A DNA stretch of 64,000 bases. Source: the human T2T-CHM13v2.0 reference genome, Homo sapiens. Shown here piece after piece: positions 481 to 10,227 of the stretch (its first letter is position 1; the number at the start of each line of letters is the position of its first letter). Where the stretch lies: NCBI RefSeq assembly GCF_009914755.1, contig NC_060947.1. One strand, given 5' to 3'. The notes under the pieces are model-generated. The model ran no database searches. It was given only the letters and a program-made list of their open reading frames with translations, and had not been told where the DNA came from. The position numbers were made by a program, and so were the translations under genes.

Positions 481-1351
481 GCCATATAATAAATAATTTA
501 ATAAGTATTTTAAAGTCTTGTAGTGTAGAAATAGAAGTGTTCTTTTCTGCAATGTATTTTTTTCCTAAGAGTAGCATTTATCTGCTTTATAGTATATGTA
601 GTATATGACTCCATTCCAAAAACTTATAAATAGACTCTGCATTCACACATGATACTCTTGTCATAATTCTCAAGCTGTACAAGGTAGGGGGGAACAACTT
701 AGAATAAGTAGTGAGAAGATTAGTAAATGAAACTGATCAACAACTATTAGTAATCTTACTAAGAAGAATAAAAGAGAGTTCAGAAGACTGATGATGGAAG
801 AATATGATTTATTTATTTGAACATAAGAGTGGAAGTCTAAGAAAGATTCTAAATGTATTAAAAAGCACTTTGGAAAAAGAAATGGATGTTACTAAAAGTC
901 AATGTGGATTCACTAAGAATGTATTATGCGAAACCAGTGTTACTCAAACTGGTGTCCCTCAGAATACTAAATGTTAATAGAATGGTGCTGGAATTAAAAA
1001 ATCTGTTCTATGGCTAAATAAATATGGGAAACAGGTATTTAGCAAAGTATTTGAACACAGAACAATTCTATTTGTGTGTGTGTGTGTGTGTGTATGTGTG
1101 TATTACTTATCATTATTCTAGACTAACGGCCTATGAAATATAGTTTTGGTTAACTATAGTTTTAAGTTAATTTTCTTTATTTGTAGAGTTACGAGACTTG
1201 TGGAAAGGAAAATAAACAATCATGTTTTATTTTAATTTTTATAAGGAGTTTGAAGAAATTTCATAAATGTAAGATGAAAACATGTCTTCAGGATCACTTA
1301 AATATATTGATTCCATAACCCTTAAATAAATTTTGAAAATTTATATATCCC

Positions 1352-1497
1352 AGAGGCTCCTCAGCCGCATGCCAAGCAGTCAATCGCCTTAGCTCCCGCA
1401 GCCTGTGCTCCCAACTCTGTGGCTCCACCCGCTATTGTAGGCCAATAATCTGTTATGGAGCATGCCTTTACCCCGTTGGAGCCCCTGCTTTCCACTG
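1352..1497 (+). pseudogene. TPK1: Retroposed TPK1 (thiamin pyrophosphokinase 1) 5'UTR and first 43 coding nt, 5'-transduced with an L1
   Basis: GC-rich segment starting right after the 5' TSD; ATG 1455 encodes MEHAFTPLEPLLST(G), matching the recalled human TPK1 N-terminus; the match stops after c.43. Confidence 0.85.
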
Positions 1498-1551
1498 AAG
1501 TGCCTTCACCTTCTGCCATAATTGTGAGGCCTCTCCCAGCTACATGGAACT
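1498..1551 (+). mobile_element. 54-nt exonised THE1/MaLR LTR fragment inside the chimeric retrocopy
   Basis: aagtgccttcaccttctgccataattgtgaggcctctcccagctacatggaact matches the THE1 LTR 3' part and ends where intact LTRs continue GT(G/A)AGT (compare 22681-22712 in this window). Confidence 0.8.
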
Positions 1552-3093
1552 ATGGCCGAATAGGAACAGCTCCAGTCGGCAGATCCCAGCATGATCGACC
1601 CAGAACACGGGTGATTTCTGCATTTCCAACTGAGCTCTGAAGAGAGCAGTGGTTCTCCCAACATGGTGTTTGAGCTCTGAGAATGGACAGACTGCCTCCT
1701 CAAGTGGGTCCCTGACCCCTGTGTAGCCTAACTGGGAGACACTTCCCAGTAGGGGCCGACAGACACCTCATATAGGTGGGTGCCCCTCTGGGAGGAAGCT
1801 TCCAGAGGAAGGATCAGCCAGCAATATTTGCTGTTCTGCAACCTCCGCTGGTGATAGCCAGGCAAACAGGGTCTGGAGTGGACCTCCAGCAAACGCCAAC
1901 AGACCTGCAGCAGAGGGGCCTGACTGTTAGAAGGAAAGCTAACAAACAGAAAGGAATAGCATCAACATGAACAAAAAGGACATCTACACCAAAACCCCAT
2001 CTGTAGGTCACCAACATGAAAGACCAAAGGTAGCTAAAACCACAAAGATAGGGAGAAACCAGAGCAGAAAAGTTGAAAATTCTAAAAATCAGAGGAGCAC
2101 CTCCTCTCCTCCAAAGGATCACAGTTCCTCACCAGCAACGGAGCAAAGCTGGACGGAGAATGACTGATGAGTTGACAGAAGTAGGCTTCAGAAGGTTGGT
2201 AATAACAAACTTCTCCGAACTAAAGGAGCATGTTTGAACCCATTGCAAGGAAGCTAAAAACCTTGAAAAAAAGGTTAGACGAATGGCTAACTAGAATAAA
2301 CAGTGTAGAGAAGACCTTAAATGACCTGATGGAGCTGCAAACCATGGCATGAGAACTTCGTGACACATGCACATGCTTCAGTAGCCAATTTGAAAAGTGG
2401 AAGAAAGGCTATCAGTGACCAAAGATGAAATTAATGAGATAAAATGAGAAGACAAAGAGGAAAAAGAGTAAAAACAAACGAACAAAGCCTCCAAGAAATA
2501 TGGGACTATGTGAAAAGACCAAATCTACATTTGATTGGTGTACCTGAAAGTGTCAGGGAGAATGGGACCAAGTTGGAAAACACTCTGCAGGATATTGTCC
2601 AGGAGAACTTCCCCAACCTAGAAAGACCTAGAAAGACAGGCCAACATTCAACTTCAGGAAATACAGAGAACACCACAAAGATACTCCTCGAGAAGAGTAA
2701 GAGCAAGACACATAATTGTCAGATTCACCAAGGCTGAAATAAAGGAAAAAATGATAAGGGTAGCCAGGGAGGAAGGTCGAGTTACCCACAAAGGGAAGCC
2801 CATCAGACTAACAGCGGATCTCTCAGAAGAAACCCTACAAGCCAGAAGAGACTGGAGGCCAATATTCAACATTCTTAAAGAACTAATACATGTTCTAAGA
2901 TTACATTTACTAATTTAATAAATGTACTAAAATATTAAAAAAAAATTTCAACCCAGAATTTCATATTCAGCCAAACTAAGCTTCATAAGTGAAGGAGAAA
3001 TAAAATCCTTTACAGACAAGCAAATGCCAAGAGATTTTGTCACCACCAGGCTCAAAATAAAGGGATGGAGGAAGATCTACCAAGCAAATGGAA

Positions 3094-3128
<35 letters not shown>

Positions 3129-6100
3129 AGTGGTTGCAATCCTAGTCTCTGTTAAAACAGATTTTGAACCAACAAAGATCAAAAGAGATAAAGAAGGCCA
3201 TTACATGATGGTGAAGGGATTAATTCAACAAGAAGAGCTAACTATCCTAAATATATATGTACCCAATACAGGAGCACCCAGATTCATAAAGCAAGTCCTT
3301 AGAGACCTACAAAGAGACTTAGACTCACACACAATAATAATGGGAGACTTTAACACCCCAGTGGCAGTACTAGACAGATCAATGAGAAAGAAGGTTAACA
3401 AGGATATCCAGGGCTTGAACTCAGCTCTGCACCAAGCAGACCTAATAGACATCTACAGAACTCTCCACCCCAAATCAACATAATATACATTTTTCTCAGC
3501 ACCACATCACACTTATTCCAAAATTGACCACATAATTGGAAGAAAAACACTCCTCAGCAAATGTAAAAGAACAGAAATCACAACAAACTGTCTCTCAGAC
3601 CACAGTGCAAGCAAATTAGAACTCACGATTAAGAAACTCACTGAAAACTGCACAGCTTCATGGAAACCGAACAACTTGCTCCTGAGTGACTACTGGGTAT
3701 GTAATGAAATGAAGGCAGAAATAAAGATGTTCTTTGAAACCAATGAGAACAAACACACAACATACCAGAATCTCTGGGACACTTTTAAAGCAGTGTGTAG
3801 AGGAAAATTTATAGCACTAAATGCCCATAAGAGAAAGCAGGAAAGATCTCAAATCGACACCCTAACATCACAACTGAAAGAACTAGAGAAACAAGAGCAA
3901 ACACATTCAAAAGCTAGCAGAAGGCAAGAAATAACTAAGATCAGAGCAGAATGGAAAGAGATAGAGACACAAAAAACCCTTAAAAAATCAATGAATCCAT
4001 GAGCTGGTTTTTTGAAAAGATCAACAAAATTGATAGTTAGCAAGACTAATAAAGAAGAAAAGAGAGAAGAATCAAATAGATGCAATAAAAAAGGATAAAG
4101 GGGATATCACCACCGATCCCACAGAAATACAAATTACCCTCAGAGAATACTATAGACATCTCTACGCAAATAAACTAGAAAATCTACAACAAATGGATAA
4201 GTTCCTGGACACATACACCCTTCCAAGACTAAACCAGGAAGAATTTGAATCTCTGAATAGACCAAAAACAGGCTCTGAAATTGAGGCAATAATTACAACC
4301 ATAAAAAGTCCAGGAACAGATGGATTCACAGCCGAATTCTACCAGAGGTACAAAGAGGAGCTGGTACCATTCCTTCTGAAACTATTCCAATCAATAGAAA
4401 AAGAGGGAATCCTTGCTAACTCATTTTGTGAGGCCAACATCATCTTGATACCAAAGCCTGGTAAAGACACAACAAAAAAAGGGAATTTTAGACCAACATC
4501 CCTAATGAATATAGATGAGAAAATCCTCAAGAAAATACTGGCAAACTGAATCCAGTAGCACATCAAAAAGCTTATCCACCACAATCAGGACTGCTTCATC
4601 CCTGGGATGCAAGGCTGGTTCAAAATACACAAATCAATAAGCATAATCAATCACATAAACAGAACCAATGACAAAAACCACATGGTTATTTCAATAGATG
4701 CAGAAAAGGCCTTCGACAAAATTCAACAGCTCTTCATGCTAAAAACTCTCAATAAACAGGGTATTGATGGGACGTATCTCAAAATAATAAGAGCTATTTA
4801 TGACAAACCCACAGCCAATATAATACTGAATGGACAAAAACTGGAAACATTCCCTTTGAAAACCGGCACAAGACAAGGATGCCCTCTCTCACCACTCCTA
4901 TTCAACATAGTGTTGGAAGTTCTGGACAGGGCAATCAGGCAAGAGAAAGAAATAAAGTGTATTCGATTAGGAAAAGAGGAAGTCAAATTGTCCCTGTTTG
5001 CACATGACATGATTGTATATTTGGAAAACCCCATCGTTTCAGCCCCAAATCTCCTTAAGCTGATAAGCAACTTCAGCAAAGTCTCAGGATACAAAATCAA
5101 AGTGCAAAAATCACAAGCATTCTTATACACCAATAACAGACAAACAGAGAGCCAAATCATGAGTGAACTCCCATTCACAATTGCTAAAAAGAGAATAAAA
5201 TACCTAGGAATCCAACTTACAAGGGATGTGAAGGACCTCTTCAAGGAGAACTACAAACCACTGCTCAATGAAATAAAAGAGGACACAAACAAATGGAAAA
5301 ACATTCCATGCTCATGGATAGGAGGAATTAATATCGTGAAAGTGGCCATACTGCCCAAGATAATTTATAGATTCAATGCCATCCCCATCAAGATACCAAT
5401 GACTTTCTTCACAGAATTGGAAAAAACTACTTTAAAGTTCATGTGGAACCAAAAAAGAGCACGCATTGCCCAGACAATCCTAAGCAAAAAGAAAAAAGCT
5501 GGAGGCATCATGCTACCTGACTTCAAACTATACTACAAGGCTACAGTAACCAAAACAGCATAGTACTGGCACCAAAGCAGATATATACACCAATGAAACA
5601 GAATAGAGGCCTCAGAAATAGCACCACACATCTACAACCATCTGATCTTTGACAAACCTGACAAAAACAAGAAATGGGGAAAGGATTCCCTATTTAATAA
5701 ATGGTGCTGGGAAAACTGGCTAGCCATATGTAGAAAGCTGAAACTGGATCTCTTCCTTACACCTTATACAAAAATTAATTCAAGATGGATTAAAGACTTA
5801 AATGTTAGACCTAAAACCATAAAAACCCTAGAAGAAAACCTAGGCATTACCATTCAGGACACAGGCATGGGCAAGGGCTTCATGTCTAAAACACCAAAAG
5901 CAATGGCAACAAAAGCCAAAATTGACAAACGGGATCTAATTAAACTAAAGAGCTTTTGCACAGCAAAAGAAACTACCATCAGAGTGAACAGGCAACCTAC
6001 AGAATGGGAGAAAATTTTTGCAATCTACCCATCTGATGAAGGCCTAATATCCAGAATCTACAAAGAACTCAAACAAATTTACAAGAAAAAAACAACTCCA

Positions 6101-6945
6101 TCAAAAAGTGGGCAAAGGATATGAACAGGCACTTCTCAAAAGAAGACATTTATGCAGTCAACAGACACCAGAAAAAATGCTCATCATCACTGGCCGTCAG
6201 AGAAATGCAAATCAAAACCACAGTGAGATACCATCTTGTGCCAGTTAGAATGACAATCATTAAAAAGTCAGGAAACAACGGATGCTGGAGAGGATATGGA
6301 GAAATAGGAACACTTTTACACTGTTGTTGGGAGTGTAAATTAGTTCAACCATTGTGGAAGACAGTGTGGTGATCCCTCAAGGATCTAGAACTAGAAATAT
6401 CATTTGACCCAGCAATCCTATTACTGGATATATACCCAAAGGATCACAAACTATGCTACTATAAAGACACATGCACACGTATGTTTATTGCAGCACTATT
6501 CACAATAGTAAAGACTTGGAACTAACCCTAATGTCCATCAATGATAGACTGGATTAAGAAAATGTGGCACATGTACACCATGGAATACTATGCAGCCATA
6601 AAAAGGATGAGTTCATGTCCTTTGTAGGGACATGGATGAAGCTGGAGACCATCATTCTCAGCAAACTATCACAAGGACAGAAAACCAAACACTGTATATT
6701 CTCAGTCGTAGGTGGGAATTGACCACTGTGATCAGTTGGACACAGGGCGGGGAACATCACACACAGGGGCCTGTCAGGGGTGGGGCCTGGGGGAGGGATA
6801 GCATTAGGAGATATATCTAATGTAAACAACGAGTTGATGGGTGCAGCAAACCAACATGGCACATGTATACCTATGTATCAAACCTGCACATTGTGCACAT
6901 GTACCCTAGAAGTTACAGTATAATAAAAAAACATTAAAAAGAGAC
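1552..6945 (+). mobile_element. Near-full-length L1PA (L1PA6/7-like) with spliced 5'UTR and disrupted ORF1/ORF2
   Basis: L1 5' end atggccgaataggaacagctcc; ORF1 remnants (EQSLQEIWDYVKRPNL); ORF2 EN/RT/C-terminal fragments (3088-6372); 3'UTR and A-rich tail; TSD AATTTATATATCCC at 1338-1351 and 6946-6959. Confidence 0.95.
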
Positions 6946-8090
6946 AATTTATATATCCCTTCACACATCTTTAACACCAAACCTTATTCATTATTAATTA
7001 AAATTTAAATTATTTTTAAATTTTTTGGTTTTTTATTTATTTTTTATTTGTGTGGGTACATAGTATGTGCATATATTTATCGGTTACGTGATATATTTTG
7101 ATACAGACATGCAATGCATAATAATCATATTGGTGTAAATGGGGTATCCATCACCTCAAGTATTTATCCTTTGGTTACAAGCTATCCAATTATACTCTTT
7201 CAGTTTTTGAAAAAGGTATAATTATTTTTTACCATAGTCACACTGTTGTGCTAGCAAATACTAGGTCTTATTCATTCTTTCTGTTTTTTGAACCCATTAA
7301 CCATCCCAACTTCTCTCTGTCTAGCCACTACCCTTCCCAGCATCTGGTAACCATCATTCTAGTTTTTATCTTCATGAGTTCAATTGTTTTAATTTTTAAC
7401 ACCCACAAATAAGTGAGAATGTGTGATGTTTGTCTTTCTGTGCCTGGCTTATTTTATTTAATATAATGACCTACAGTGCCATCTATGTTGTTGCAAAGGA
7501 AAGGATCTCATTCTTTTTTATGACTGAATAGTAGTCAGTTGTGTATATGTACTACAATATCTTCATTCATTTGTTGACAGACCCTTAGGTTGCTTCCAAA
7601 TCTTGGCTATTGGGAATAGGGCTGTAATAAACATGAGAGTACAGATATCTCTTCGATATACTGATTTCCTTTCTTTTTGGCTATATACCTAGGAGTGGGA
7701 TTGCTGGATCATATGGTAGCTCTATTTTTAGTTTTTTGAGGAACTTCCAAACTGTTCTTTATAGTGGTTGTACTCACTTACATTACTACCAACAGTGTAT
7801 GTGGGTTCCCGTTTCTCCACATCCTTGCCAGCATCTGTTATTGCCGGTCTTTGGATAAAAGCCATTTTAACTGGGGTGAGATGATATATCATTGCGGTTT
7901 TGATACGCATTTCTCTGATGAGCAATGATGTTGAGTGTCTTTTCATATATCTGTTTATCATTTTTATGTCTTCATTTGAGAAATCTCTATTCAAATCTTT
8001 TGTCTATTTTTGAATTGGATTATTAGGCATTTTCCTACAGAACTGTTTGAGCTCCTTATATATTCTGGTTATAAATTCCTTGTCAGATGG

Positions 8091-10227
8091 TGACATGGTT
8101 TGGTTCTGTGTCCCCACCCAAATCTCATGTTCAATTGTAATTCCCAATGTTGGAAGTGGGGCCTGGTGGCAGGTGAATTGGTCATGGGGTGATTTCTCAT
8201 GGTTTAACTCCGTCCCCATTGGAGCTGTTGTTGTGATAATGAATTCTTGTGATATCTGGTTGTTTAAAAGTGTGTGGCACCCCCCACCCCAAGCTTCCTT
8301 GGTCTTGCTCCTGCCATGTAAGACACCTGTTTCTGATTTGCCTTCTGCCATGAGTAAAAGCTCCCTGAGGCCTTCCCAGAAGTAGATGCTGCTATGCTTC
8401 CTGTATGCCTGCCTGTGTATATGTACCACAATTTCTTTATCCATTAATAAGCCAATTAAACCTCATTGCTTTATAAATTATCCAGTCTCAGGTATTCTTT
8501 ATAGCAGTGTGTGAATTGGCTAATATGACAAATTGGTATCAAGGAGTGTGGCATTGCTATAAAGATACCTGAAATTGTAGAAGTGGAACTGGGTAATGGG
8601 AACTGGGTAATGGGCAGAGGTTGGAAGAGTGTGGAAGGCTCAGAAGAAGACAGGAAGATGAGGGAAAGTATGTAACTTCCTAGAGACTGGTTGAATGGTT
8701 ATGACCAAAATGCTGATAGTGATATGGACAGTGAAGGCCAGTCTCAGGAGGTCTCAGATGAAGATAAGAAACGTATTGGTCACTTCTGTTATGAGATGAT
8801 TTAGGGTATCTGATGGAAGAAATTTCTAAGCAGCAAAGAAATGAACTGAAACTGGAACTTATATTTAAAAGGGAAGCAAAGCATAAAAGTTTGGAAAATT
8901 TGCAGCCTGGTCATGTGGTAAAAAAGAAAAGGCCATTTTCAGAGGAGGAATTCAAGCTGGCTGCATAAATTTGCATAACTAAGAGAAAAGCAAGTGCTGA
9001 TAGCCAAGACAATGAAAAAAAAAATGCCTTGAAAGCATTTCAGAGACTTGCTTGGCAGCTCCTTCCATCACAGGCCTGGAGGCCTAGGAGGGAAGAATCA
9101 TTTCCTGAGCCAGACCCAGGGCCCCGCTGCCCTGTGCAGCCTCAGGAGACTGCTTTCTGTATCCCAGCTGCTCCAATCCCAGCTATGGCTAAAAGGGGCC
9201 CAGATGCAGCTTGGGTCACTGCCTCAGAGGGTGAAAGCCATAAGCCATGGTGGCTTCCATGTTGTATTAAGCCTGTGGGTGTGCAGAGTACAACAGTTGA
9301 GGCTTGGGAGCCTACATCTGGATTCCAGAAGATGTATGGAAAAGCTTGGATGCCCAGGCAGAAGCTGCTGCAGGGGTGGAGCCCTCATGGAGAACCTCTG
9401 CTAGGGCAGCATGGAGGGGAAATGAGGGGTTGGAGCAGTGTTGCACCAGTGTGCCCTGGATGTGAGACATTGGTGTCAAAGATTATTTTGGAGATTTAAG
9501 ATGTAATAAATTTCTTTCTGGGTTTCAGACTTGTGTGGGGCCTGTAGTCCCTTATTTTGGATGATTTCTCCCTTTTGAAACAGGAGTGCTTATTAAATGC
9601 CTATATTGCTGTTGTATCTTGGAAGTAACTAACTTGTTTTTTATTTTACAGGCTCTTAGGTGGAAAGGACTTGCCTTGTCTCAAATGAGACTTTGAAATT
9701 TGGACTTTTGAGTTAATGCTGGAATGAGTTAAGACTGTGAGGGCCTGTTGGGAAGGCCTGATTGTATTTTGCAGTTTGAGAAAGAAATGAGTTTTGGGAG
9801 GGGCCGGGGTGGAATGATATGGTTTGGATCTTTGTCTTCACCCAAGTTTCATATTCAATTGTAATAGCCAATGTTGGAGAAGGGGCCTGATGGGAGATGA
9901 CTGGATTATGGGGGCAGTTTCTCATGGTTTAATACCATCCCTCCTGGAGCTGTCATCACAATAGTAATTATTGTGAGAACTGGTTGTTTAAAAGTGTATA
10001 GTACCTTCTGCCCCCTTGCTCCTGCTCTGGCCAAGTAAGACATGCTTGCTTCCCTTTTGCCTTTCTCAATAATTGAAAGTTTCCTGAGACCTTCCCAGAA
10101 ACTGAGCAGATGCCAGAATCATGCTTCCTGTATGGCCTTCAGAACTGTGAGCCAATTAAACCTCTTTTAAAACAAATTACCCCGTCTCACATATTTCTTT
10201 ATAGCAGTGTTAGAACTGAGTAATGCA
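8091..10227 (+). mobile_element. MaLR (MST-type) provirus: LTR 8091-~8527, internal region, LTR 9815-10227
   Basis: Both LTRs start TGA(C/T)ATGGTTTGG and end near ttatagcagtg..taat(g)ca; MaLR-int sequence between; 5-bp TSD gatgg (8086-8090) / ggtgg (10228-10232) splits the L1 motif tcagatgg|gtagttt. Confidence 0.9.

What the first reader, a model, noticed from the sequence alone, without database searches (positions are those of the whole stretch)
1497..1552. Both ends of the 54-nt THE1 piece, and the L1 start, fall on cryptic splice sites
Seen: the piece ends GGAACT, and intact MaLR LTRs in this window continue GAACT|GTGAG (near 10142 and 22702), a consensus donor. Knowledge: THE1 consensus has gtaAG immediately before AAGTGCC, and L1 starts ...CCAAG|ATGGCCGAATAGG, so the L1 here begins right after an AG and lacks its first ~15 nt. 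Inference: three precise junctions made by the spliceosome rather than template switching, including use of the L1 CCAAG (YY1-site) AG as acceptor.
Basis: partly seen in the sequence, partly recalled or inferred. Interest (0 to 1): 0.7.

Follow-up and report, generated by a model that had tools for sequence, protein, structure and literature searches.

The report
Spliced TPK1–LTR–L1 chimeric retrocopy
An old, dead L1 jumping gene on chromosome X carries at its front two exons of the chromosome 7 gene TPK1 and a 54-base LTR-derived mini-exon, all joined at splice sites, so it is a DNA copy of a spliced hybrid RNA, and it is already listed in a 2026 catalogue.

Summary
Window 1352-6942 is a single L1 insertion flanked by a 17-nt target-site duplication that matches at 16 of 17 positions. 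It reads: TPK1 exon 1 (1352-1438), TPK1 exon 2 up to c.43 (1439-1497), a 54-nt MaLR (THE1/MST-type) LTR piece (1498-1551), then L1 from about nt 16 of its 5'UTR.

Every junction lies on a splice site in the source sequences.
- TPK1 exon 2 is followed by GT on chr7.
- Family copies of the LTR have a pyrimidine run plus AG before the piece (6 of 7) and GT after it (5 of 7).
- Twelve of 12 full-length L1s have AAG just before ATGGC.
It is the known L1 5'UTR 97/622 (SpIRE) junction.
- There are no untemplated bases.

Splicing therefore fits far better than template switching.

This insertion is already in Table S5 of Law & Burns (Cell Genomics 2026), whose paper describes the class. What I add:
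- The 54 nt are one contiguous LTR exon.
- The THE1 inside TPK1, to which the table maps 42 of these bases, is a poor source candidate.
- No source was found in 222 kb of TPK1, so cis- versus trans-splicing stays open.

Interest is low to moderate.

The parts
1335..1351 (+). 5' target-site duplication GAAAATTTATATATCCC
   Evidence: The same 17-mer is listed in Table S5 of PMC13174262.
1352..1438 (+). Retro-copied TPK1 exon 1 (5'UTR part), starting near the transcript start
   Evidence: Window 1354-1438 matches C7:146016762-146016847 (minus strand) at 71 of 86 aligned positions; many differences are at CpG sites. On chr7 the exon is followed by gtaagt.
1439..1497 (+). TPK1 exon 2 up to c.43 (ATG at 1455), ending exactly at the exon's splice donor
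   Evidence: 58 of 59 positions match C7:146016354-146016412. On chr7 the exon is preceded by aatgcag and followed by gtactg.
1498..1551 (+). 54-nt cryptic exon from a short-form MaLR (THE1/MST-type) LTR
   Evidence: It is contiguous at 92-96% identity with copies on other chromosomes. A 33-mer pattern of this form has 3,297 genome matches at up to 3 mismatches, against 0 for the control. Family copies have AG before and GT after.
1552..1634 (+). L1 5'UTR from about nt 16 to the 97-type splice donor
   Evidence: Twelve of 12 full-length L1s carry ...AAG just before this start.
1635..6924 (+). Rest of the L1, from the 622-type acceptor through ORF1, ORF2 and the 3'UTR. The reading frames are broken and there are later internal changes.
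   Evidence: The junction CAACTGAG|CTCTGAAGAG, compared with the full-length L1 in L044, shows a GT...AG gap of 511 nt. The longest open stretch is 334 aa.
6925..6942 (+). Degenerate A-rich tail
6943..6959 (+). 3' target-site duplication GACAATTTATATATCCC, matching the 5' copy at 16 of 17 positions

Best explanation
Window 1352-6942 is the DNA copy of one multiply spliced chimeric RNA. The RNA began at or near the TPK1 transcription start on chr7. It was spliced exon 1 to exon 2, then from the exon 2 donor (after c.43) to the AG acceptor of a cryptic 54-nt exon inside a sense-oriented short-form THE1/MST LTR. From that exon's GT donor it was spliced to an AG about 14-15 nt inside the 5'UTR of a near full-length L1. 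The L1 5'UTR also carries the known 97/622 intra-UTR splice, either inherited from its source or made in the same RNA. The L1-encoded proteins then copied this RNA into chrX by target-primed reverse transcription, leaving a 17-nt duplication and an A-rich tail.

Shown here: the anatomy, the duplication, and the coincidence of every junction with splice signals in the source sequences. Inferred: that the spliceosome made the junctions, and where the LTR-L1 unit lay. My leading guess is cis-splicing to an LTR-L1 arrangement inside TPK1 that is no longer present in the human reference (an unfixed allele, or a deletion). Trans-splicing is the main alternative. The copy is old (about 90% identical to its nearest relatives) and has broken reading frames. 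It lacks most L1 promoter sequence, lies antisense in an HMGN5 intron, and has no evident present function.
For: One retrotransposition event. A single pair of 17-nt duplications (16 of 17 matching) brackets the TPK1, LTR and L1 parts, and an A-rich tail is present.

The TPK1 part is a spliced mRNA. The exon 1|exon 2 junction is exact, and the copy stops at the last base of exon 2, which is followed by GT on chr7.

LTR piece. Six of 7 fetched copies have AG at the homologous 5' site, after a pyrimidine-rich run. Five of 7 have GT after GGAACT. The THE1 inside TPK1 and two LTRs in the window show the same signals.

L1 start. Twelve of 12 full-length L1s have AAG directly before the window L1's first base. 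Nine of the 11 relatives have 7-8 pyrimidines in the 12 nt before that AG.

The 1634|1635 junction equals a GT...AG deletion of 511 nt relative to a full-length L1. It matches the SpIRE97/622 splice of Larson et al. 2018 (PMC5860796, passages).

Chance estimate for the LTR and L1 dinucleotides is about 3e-4. There are no untemplated bases at any junction.

Law & Burns 2026 (PMC13174262; sections 13, 14, 20, 21 and Table S5 read) list this very insertion among 17 mRNA/lncRNA-L1 chimeras. They conclude that splicing is favoured over template switching for the class.
Against: No source was found. I examined C7:145794000-146016354, which is 222 kb and covers all of the roughly 70-kb intron 2 plus the next 152 kb. 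It holds no short-form LTR matching the piece and no sense-oriented L1 5' end. About 160 kb of TPK1 could not be fetched.

The paper states that 15 of its 17 gene loci have no intronic source L1.

The L1 AG alone is weak evidence, about 11% by chance. The polypyrimidine tract and branch point of that acceptor would lie mostly in unknown flanking DNA.

Two of 7 LTR copies have AT instead of GT, and one has AA instead of AG. The site state in the actual source copy is therefore unknown.

No RNA data were available to show that these splice sites are used.
Confidence: 0.85

Rival explanations
1. Trans-splicing. The TPK1 exon 2 donor, left waiting by its roughly 70-kb intron, was joined by the spliceosome to the LTR-exon acceptor of a separate pre-RNA transcribed from another locus. 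That RNA carried the LTR exon and a downstream L1. The product was then retrotransposed. This keeps the spliceosomal origin of the junctions but denies that the LTR-L1 unit ever lay in TPK1.
For: No matching LTR or sense L1 5' end was found in 222 kb of TPK1. Law & Burns favour this model for the class and note the long downstream introns. The only genomic copy that matches a 35-nt stretch of the LTR exactly lies on chromosome 1 (L006, C1:241279295-241279329). It also shares the piece's unusual AAG start.
Against: No L1 5' end lies within 11.5 kb downstream of that chr1 LTR. By my rough estimate, about one copy with the three shared variants is expected by chance among roughly 3,300 copies. 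Natural trans-splicing is rare in mammals. A lost polymorphic source in TPK1 explains the same data.
Confidence: 0.22
2. Reverse-transcriptase template switching, as in the U6-L1 type of chimeric retrogene. During integration the L1 enzyme jumped from the L1 RNA to an LTR-containing RNA, and then to TPK1 mRNA.
For: Chimeric retrocopies made this way exist; Law & Burns, section 13, call this formally possible. One junction has a 1-nt overlap (G).
Against: It would need three switch points that all land on splice-site borders, including the exact last base of TPK1 exon 2 and both ends of a 54-nt segment bounded by AG and GT in its family. The joint chance is about 3e-4 or less. There are no untemplated bases. 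The same RNA carries two more splice junctions.
Confidence: 0.05
3. The mapping in the published table. The last 42 nt of the piece come from the THE1 LTR inside TPK1 (hg38 chr7:144627255-144627296; CHM13 C7:145807713-145807754). The first 12 nt are a 9-nt intron fragment plus an untemplated CA.
For: Table S5 of PMC13174262. That LTR is sense to TPK1, has AG and GT at the right places, and would give a cis source for the exon.
Against: It matches only piece positions 12-54, at 86%. Between its AG and GT lie 63 nt, including about 10 nt that the piece lacks; a global alignment needs a 10-nt gap, two 1-nt gaps within the piece, an extra first base on the THE1 side, and 7 mismatches. Copies on other chromosomes match all 54 nt contiguously with about 4 differences, and 3,297 short-form copies exist. 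The 9-mer in intron 2 has TA before it and TT after it, and 0.76 such matches per strand are expected by chance in 200 kb. The only L1 5' end within 13.7 kb downstream is antisense.
Confidence: 0.05

Closest known systems
mRNA/lncRNA-LINE-1 chimeric insertions by spliced 5' transduction (Law & Burns, Cell Genomics 2026, PMC13174262). This locus is the row chrX:81175826-81181203 (hg38) in their Table S5.
   Same: The hallmarks match: first exons of a host gene in sense, ending at a splice donor; a near full-length L1; one target-site duplication; an endonuclease site; and an A-rich tail. The downstream intron is long (about 70 kb) and no source L1 is reported in the gene.
   Different: This is the only row of the 17 read whose L1 begins at ATGGCC, just after the internal AAG. 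It also has an extra repeat-derived exon between the gene exons and the L1. The table does not recognise the 54 nt as one LTR exon and gives no acceptor.
RAP1GDS1-L1PA2 chimeras: a promoter-less SpIRE driven by a host gene promoter (same paper, sections 14 and 21)
   Same: Two host exons are spliced to an L1 whose 5'UTR carries the 97/622-type deletion. The host promoter would have to supply transcription.
   Different: For RAP1GDS1 a source L1 sits in intron 2, the acceptor lies 15 bp upstream of the L1, and long-read RNA supports the splice. Here no source and no RNA evidence exist, the acceptor lies inside the L1, and only one copy exists.
SpIRE97/622, spliced integrated retrotransposed elements (Larson et al., PLoS Biol 2018, PMC5860796, passages read)
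   Same: The L1 part has the same donor and acceptor usage inside the 5'UTR.
   Different: The published SpIREs start at the normal L1 5' end and carry no host exons. The published census used probes more than 95% identical to a young L1 and found only one L1PA6 member, whereas this older copy and at least 39 relatives share the junction.
Template-switch chimeric retrogenes (U6-L1 type); recalled from Buzdin and colleagues, not read here
   Same: A non-L1 RNA copy is fused 5' of an L1 within one pair of duplications.
   Different: In those cases the junctions are not tied to splice sites and the L1 part is usually strongly 5'-truncated. Here every junction is a splice-site border and the L1 is near full length.

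Membership tests
L1 insertion by target-primed reverse transcription | One pair of target-site duplications around the whole insert, an A-rich 3' tail, and an A/T-rich cleavage site | tested here: met
   The 17-nt duplications at 1335-1351 and 6943-6959 match at 16 of 17. The tail is 6925-6942. The upstream context is ttttg|aaaa.
Spliced 5'-transduction mRNA-L1 chimera (Law & Burns class) | Host-gene first exons in sense orientation, joined exon to exon, with the last one ending exactly at its splice donor | tested here: met
   TPK1 exon 1|exon 2 at 1438|1439, and exon 2 ends at 1497 before genomic GT.
Spliced 5'-transduction mRNA-L1 chimera (Law & Burns class) | A near full-length L1 that could have encoded its own proteins | tested here: met
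   The L1 spans 1552-6924, from about nt 16 to the 3' end. The frames are now broken, with a longest open stretch of 334 aa. Coding capacity at the time of insertion is inferred.
Spliced 5'-transduction mRNA-L1 chimera (Law & Burns class) | A source L1 downstream of the donor in the host gene (cis model) | tested here: not met
   None was found in C7:145794000-146016354. About 160 kb of the gene was not examined. The paper reports none for 15 of 17 loci. The class as published does not require this feature.
SpIRE97/622 | An L1 5'UTR deletion bounded by the G98U99 donor and the acceptor at about nt 620-622 | tested here: met
   The window reads CAACTGAG|CTCTGAAGAG. The full-length L1 in L044 reads GAG|gtactg...511 nt...ctgacag|CTTTGAAGAG. 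The numbering comes from Larson 2018.
MaLR (THE1/MST) LTR-derived exon | Contiguous similarity to the LTR family, with AG before and GT after in family members | tested here: met
   92-96% identity to 7 copies; AG in 6 of 7 and GT in 5 of 7; 3,297 pattern matches. The subfamily name (THE1 versus MST) was not tested because no repeat library is on hand. The short form looks MST-like by recall.
Template-switch chimeric retrogene | Junctions independent of splice sites, often with microhomology or untemplated bases | tested here: not met
   All junctions fall on splice-site borders. There are no untemplated bases and only one 1-nt overlap.

The most novel reading that the evidence does not exclude
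The chimera records natural trans-splicing in the primate germline. TPK1 pre-mRNA from chr7 was joined to an LTR-exon/L1 transcript from another chromosome, and the product was then retrotransposed. A candidate LTR lies at C1:241279295-241279348; it shares the piece's AAG start and two rarer variants. In this reading an AG inside the L1 YY1 box served as a 3' splice site, so a promoter-poor SpIRE-type L1 could borrow a host promoter without lying in that gene.
Probability: 0.2. Interest if true: 0.6.

Novelty: already known. Interest (0 to 1): 0.3.

Why it matters
These chimeras show how L1 elements can pick up host exons and host promoters, which is a route to new 5' ends for L1 and to exon shuffling. 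This one is a clean multi-splice example, with four splice junctions preserved in a single DNA copy.

Its value is as a refinement of a published catalogue entry. The middle segment is a single LTR-derived cryptic exon. The L1 was entered through an internal AG, which removes its first ~15 nt and, by recall, cuts the YY1 box. The THE1 inside TPK1, which the table cites, is unlikely to be the source. That last point bears on the open question raised by the paper, whether such chimeras arise in cis or by trans-splicing. The locus has no sign of present-day function.

Tried and rejected
1. Source inside TPK1. I fetched C7:145816355-146016354, 145804000-145812000 and 145794000-145803999. I located exon 3 at about C7:145946540 with a short peptide motif, so intron 2 is fully covered. 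The piece had no match better than 17 nt in the first 200 kb. The only LTR match is the long-form THE1 at 145807713-145807754, at 86% over 43 nt. The only L1 5' end is antisense.

2. Source L1 by similarity. The 40 best genome matches each to the L1 5'UTR and to 1.2 kb of 5'UTR/ORF1 are 86-92% identical. None stands out and none lies in TPK1. None of the 11 fetched relatives has the LTR piece within 1.5 kb.

3. Other copies of the LTR|L1 junction. None of the 39 non-self best matches spans it. The TPK1 part matches only chr7 and this locus. The chimera therefore left no detectable progeny.

4. Candidate LTR on chr1 (L006). It is an exact match to a 35-nt stretch and has the same AAG start. No L1 5' end lies within 11.5 kb downstream. 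This is left as a weak lead.

5. The table's 9-nt fragment in intron 2. It has no AG or GT flanks and is a chance-level match.

6. Literature. No paper holds TPK1, LINE-1 and chimeric together in its main text (one search also gave nothing for TPK1). A paper on ERV/LTR splice signals (PMC1794541, passages) does not describe this LTR exon.

7. No splice-site scoring program and no repeat consensus library were on hand. Site strength is therefore judged only by eye against the textbook consensus, and the subfamily names (THE1 versus MST, L1PA6/7) are unverified.

Full report
**What is in the sequence**

Window 1335-6959 holds one L1 insertion bracketed by a 17-nt target-site duplication. The upstream copy is GAAAATTTATATATCCC at 1335-1351 and the downstream copy is GACAATTTATATATCCC at 6943-6959, a 16 of 17 match. 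A degenerate A-rich tail lies at 6925-6942.

Inside, from 5' to 3':
- 1352-1438 is TPK1 exon 1. Window 1354-1438 aligns to C7:146016762-146016847 (minus strand) at 71 of 86 positions, and many differences are at CpG sites.
- 1439-1497 is TPK1 exon 2, matching C7:146016354-146016412 at 58 of 59 positions. The ATG is at 1455, so 1497 is c.43.
- 1498-1551 is the 54-nt LTR piece.
- From 1552 onward is L1, starting ATGGCCGAATAGG.

On chr7, exon 1 is followed by gtaagt. Exon 2 is preceded by aatgcag and followed by gtactg. The TPK1 part is therefore a spliced mRNA that stops at the last base of exon 2.

**The 54-nt piece**

It matches THE1/MST-type MaLR LTRs on many chromosomes at 88-96% identity. 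I fetched seven copies (L004-L010).
- Six of 7 have AG at the site homologous to the piece's 5' border, after a pyrimidine-rich run (for example ...ctcattctctcttgtctgccaccatgtgag|A). One of these, L004, is a longer form. One copy has AA.
- Five of 7 have GT right after GGAACT (GTGAGT, GTAAGT, GTGCGT, GTGTGT, GTGAGA). Two have AT.
They have AG at the homologous upstream site.

The piece is thus bounded by a good acceptor and a near-consensus donor in its family.

**The L1 start**

All 11 closest full-length relatives (L032-L042), plus a further full-length L1 (L044), read ...AAG|A(T/C)GGC and have about 13-16 more bases upstream. The window L1 therefore lacks about 15 nt and starts just after an AG. 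Nine of the 11 relatives have 7-8 pyrimidines in the 12 nt before that AG. That this AG lies in the YY1 box is recalled from Athanikar et al. 2004, which is not held.

At 1634|1635 the L1 reads CAACTGAG|CTCTGAAGAG. A full-length L1 (L044) reads CAACGGAG|gtactg...(511 nt)...ctgacag|CTTTGAAGAG. This is the 97/622 intra-5'UTR splice of SpIREs (Larson et al. 2018, PMC5860796, passages). That splice removes most of the L1 promoter. All 11 fetched relatives share the junction, and the 39 non-self matches are contiguous across it.

**Chance**

In 490-nt LTR contexts AG occupies 0.043-0.055 of positions and GT 0.057-0.067, a product of about 0.003. AG occupies 11 of the first 98 L1 positions. The joint value is about 3e-4, without counting the exact exon-2 end or site quality. 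There are no untemplated bases. One junction has a 1-nt overlap and the other has none.

Splicing is far better supported than template switching.

**Already in print**

A literature search led to Law & Burns, Cell Genomics 2026 (PMC13174262). I read sections 13, 14, 20 and 21 and all three parts of Table S5. The paper describes 17 mRNA/lncRNA-L1 chimeras. Six end at splice donors, most carry near full-length L1s, and 15 loci lack a source L1. The authors discuss cis- and trans-splicing.

TPK1 is not named in the main text, but Table S5 has this very insertion.
- The row is hg38 chrX:81175826-81181203, with the same TSD and TPK1 ENST00000378098.8 exons 1-2.
- The table maps 42 nt of the middle piece to chr7:144627255-144627296 inside TPK1 and marks the GT after it as the splice donor.
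- It treats the first 12 nt as CA plus a questioned 9-nt match.

No paper holds TPK1, LINE-1 and chimeric together in its main text.

**Test of the table's mapping**

The CHM13 equivalent is a THE1 solo LTR, sense to TPK1, at C7:145807713-145807754.
- It matches only piece positions 12-54, at 86%.
- Between its AG and GT lie 63 nt, including about 10 nt that the piece lacks. A global alignment needs a 10-nt gap, two 1-nt gaps within the piece, an extra first base on the THE1 side, and 7 mismatches.
- Copies on other chromosomes match all 54 nt with about 4 differences.
- A 33-mer pattern of the short form has 3,297 genome matches at up to 3 mismatches, against 0 for the control.
- The 9-mer in intron 2 (C7:145979870) has TA before it and TT after it. 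About 0.76 such hits per strand are expected in 200 kb.

I conclude that the 54 nt are one contiguous short-form LTR exon, and that the TPK1-intronic THE1 is a family cross-match rather than the source.

**Search for the source**

Exon 3 lies at about C7:145946540, so intron 2 is about 70 kb. In C7:145794000-146016354 (222 kb) there is no short-form LTR match and no sense L1 5' end. The one L1 5' end, at 145794650, is antisense. About 160 kb of the gene could not be fetched.

The best genome matches to the L1 are 86-92% identical. None stands out and none is in TPK1. No other locus has the LTR|L1 junction or the TPK1 part, so the chimera left no detectable progeny.

One LTR on chr1 (L006) matches a 35-nt stretch exactly and shares the AAG start. 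No L1 5' end lies within 11.5 kb downstream of it, and by my rough estimate about one such copy is expected by chance.

**Mechanism**

The most likely mechanism (0.85) is that an RNA started at the TPK1 promoter and was spliced e1-e2-LTR exon-L1 (AG at nt 14-15). It carried the 97/622 splice, either inherited or made in the same RNA, and was inserted by the L1 machinery. Whether the LTR-L1 unit lay in TPK1 (a lost allele or a deletion) or on another RNA (trans-splicing, about 0.2) cannot be decided here. Template switching gets about 0.05.

The TPK1 ATG opens a 61-codon upstream frame that runs through the LTR exon and L1 5'UTR to a TGA at 1638. The copy is old: it is about 90% identical to its nearest relatives and its longest open stretch is 334 aa. 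It lies antisense in an HMGN5 intron, and nothing suggests a present function.

**Verdict**

The thing is already catalogued, and the class is described in print. The refinements are useful to specialists but small.

Noticed in passing
window 1552-1800; loci L032-L042: The L1 has the SpIRE 97/622-type 5'UTR junction at 1634|1635. All 11 fetched relatives share it, and the 39 non-self matches (86-92% identity) are contiguous across it. Five of the 11 also read CTCTG, like the window, right after the junction, and three more carry the C at the third base. A full-length L1 has CTTTG there. This raises the question whether older L1PA elements include a propagating short-5'UTR lineage rather than only independent dead-on-arrival splicing products. 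The published census used young-L1 probes and found one L1PA6 case.
   Followed up: partly
L043 3714-3776 (C7:145807713-145807775, minus strand): A THE1 solo LTR lies sense to TPK1, about 139 kb downstream of exon 3, with AG and GT bounding a potential 63-nt exon. Table S5 of PMC13174262 maps 42 nt of the chrX piece to it. My alignments suggest this is a repeat-family cross-match.
   Followed up: yes
L044 650-5088 (C7:145794650-145799087, plus strand): An L1 with a full-length long-form 5'UTR lies antisense to TPK1, about 13 kb downstream of that THE1. It is 90.8% identical to the window L1 over 3.1 kb of ORF2, and most of ORF1 (query nt 831-2278) is missing.
   Followed up: partly
window 6943-6959: The downstream target-site duplication reads GACAATTT... 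in this assembly. The published hg38 table lists GAAAATTT... for both copies. This is either a difference between assemblies or a simplification in the table.
   Followed up: no
window 1455-1640: The TPK1 start codon opens a 61-codon frame that runs through the LTR exon and the L1 5'UTR to a TGA at 1638. In the original RNA it would have been an upstream reading frame ahead of L1 ORF1.
   Followed up: partly
window 2881-2945 and 3098-3126: The L1 body holds a roughly 65-nt AT-rich stretch that does not look like L1, and a run of about 29 A. These are probably later changes to the element.
   Followed up: no
window 1354-1438: The copied TPK1 exon 1 is only 83% identical to chr7, while exon 2 is 98% identical. 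Most of the exon 1 differences are CpG to TpG or CpA. This fits methylation decay of a CpG-island fragment after it was copied to chrX.
   Followed up: partly
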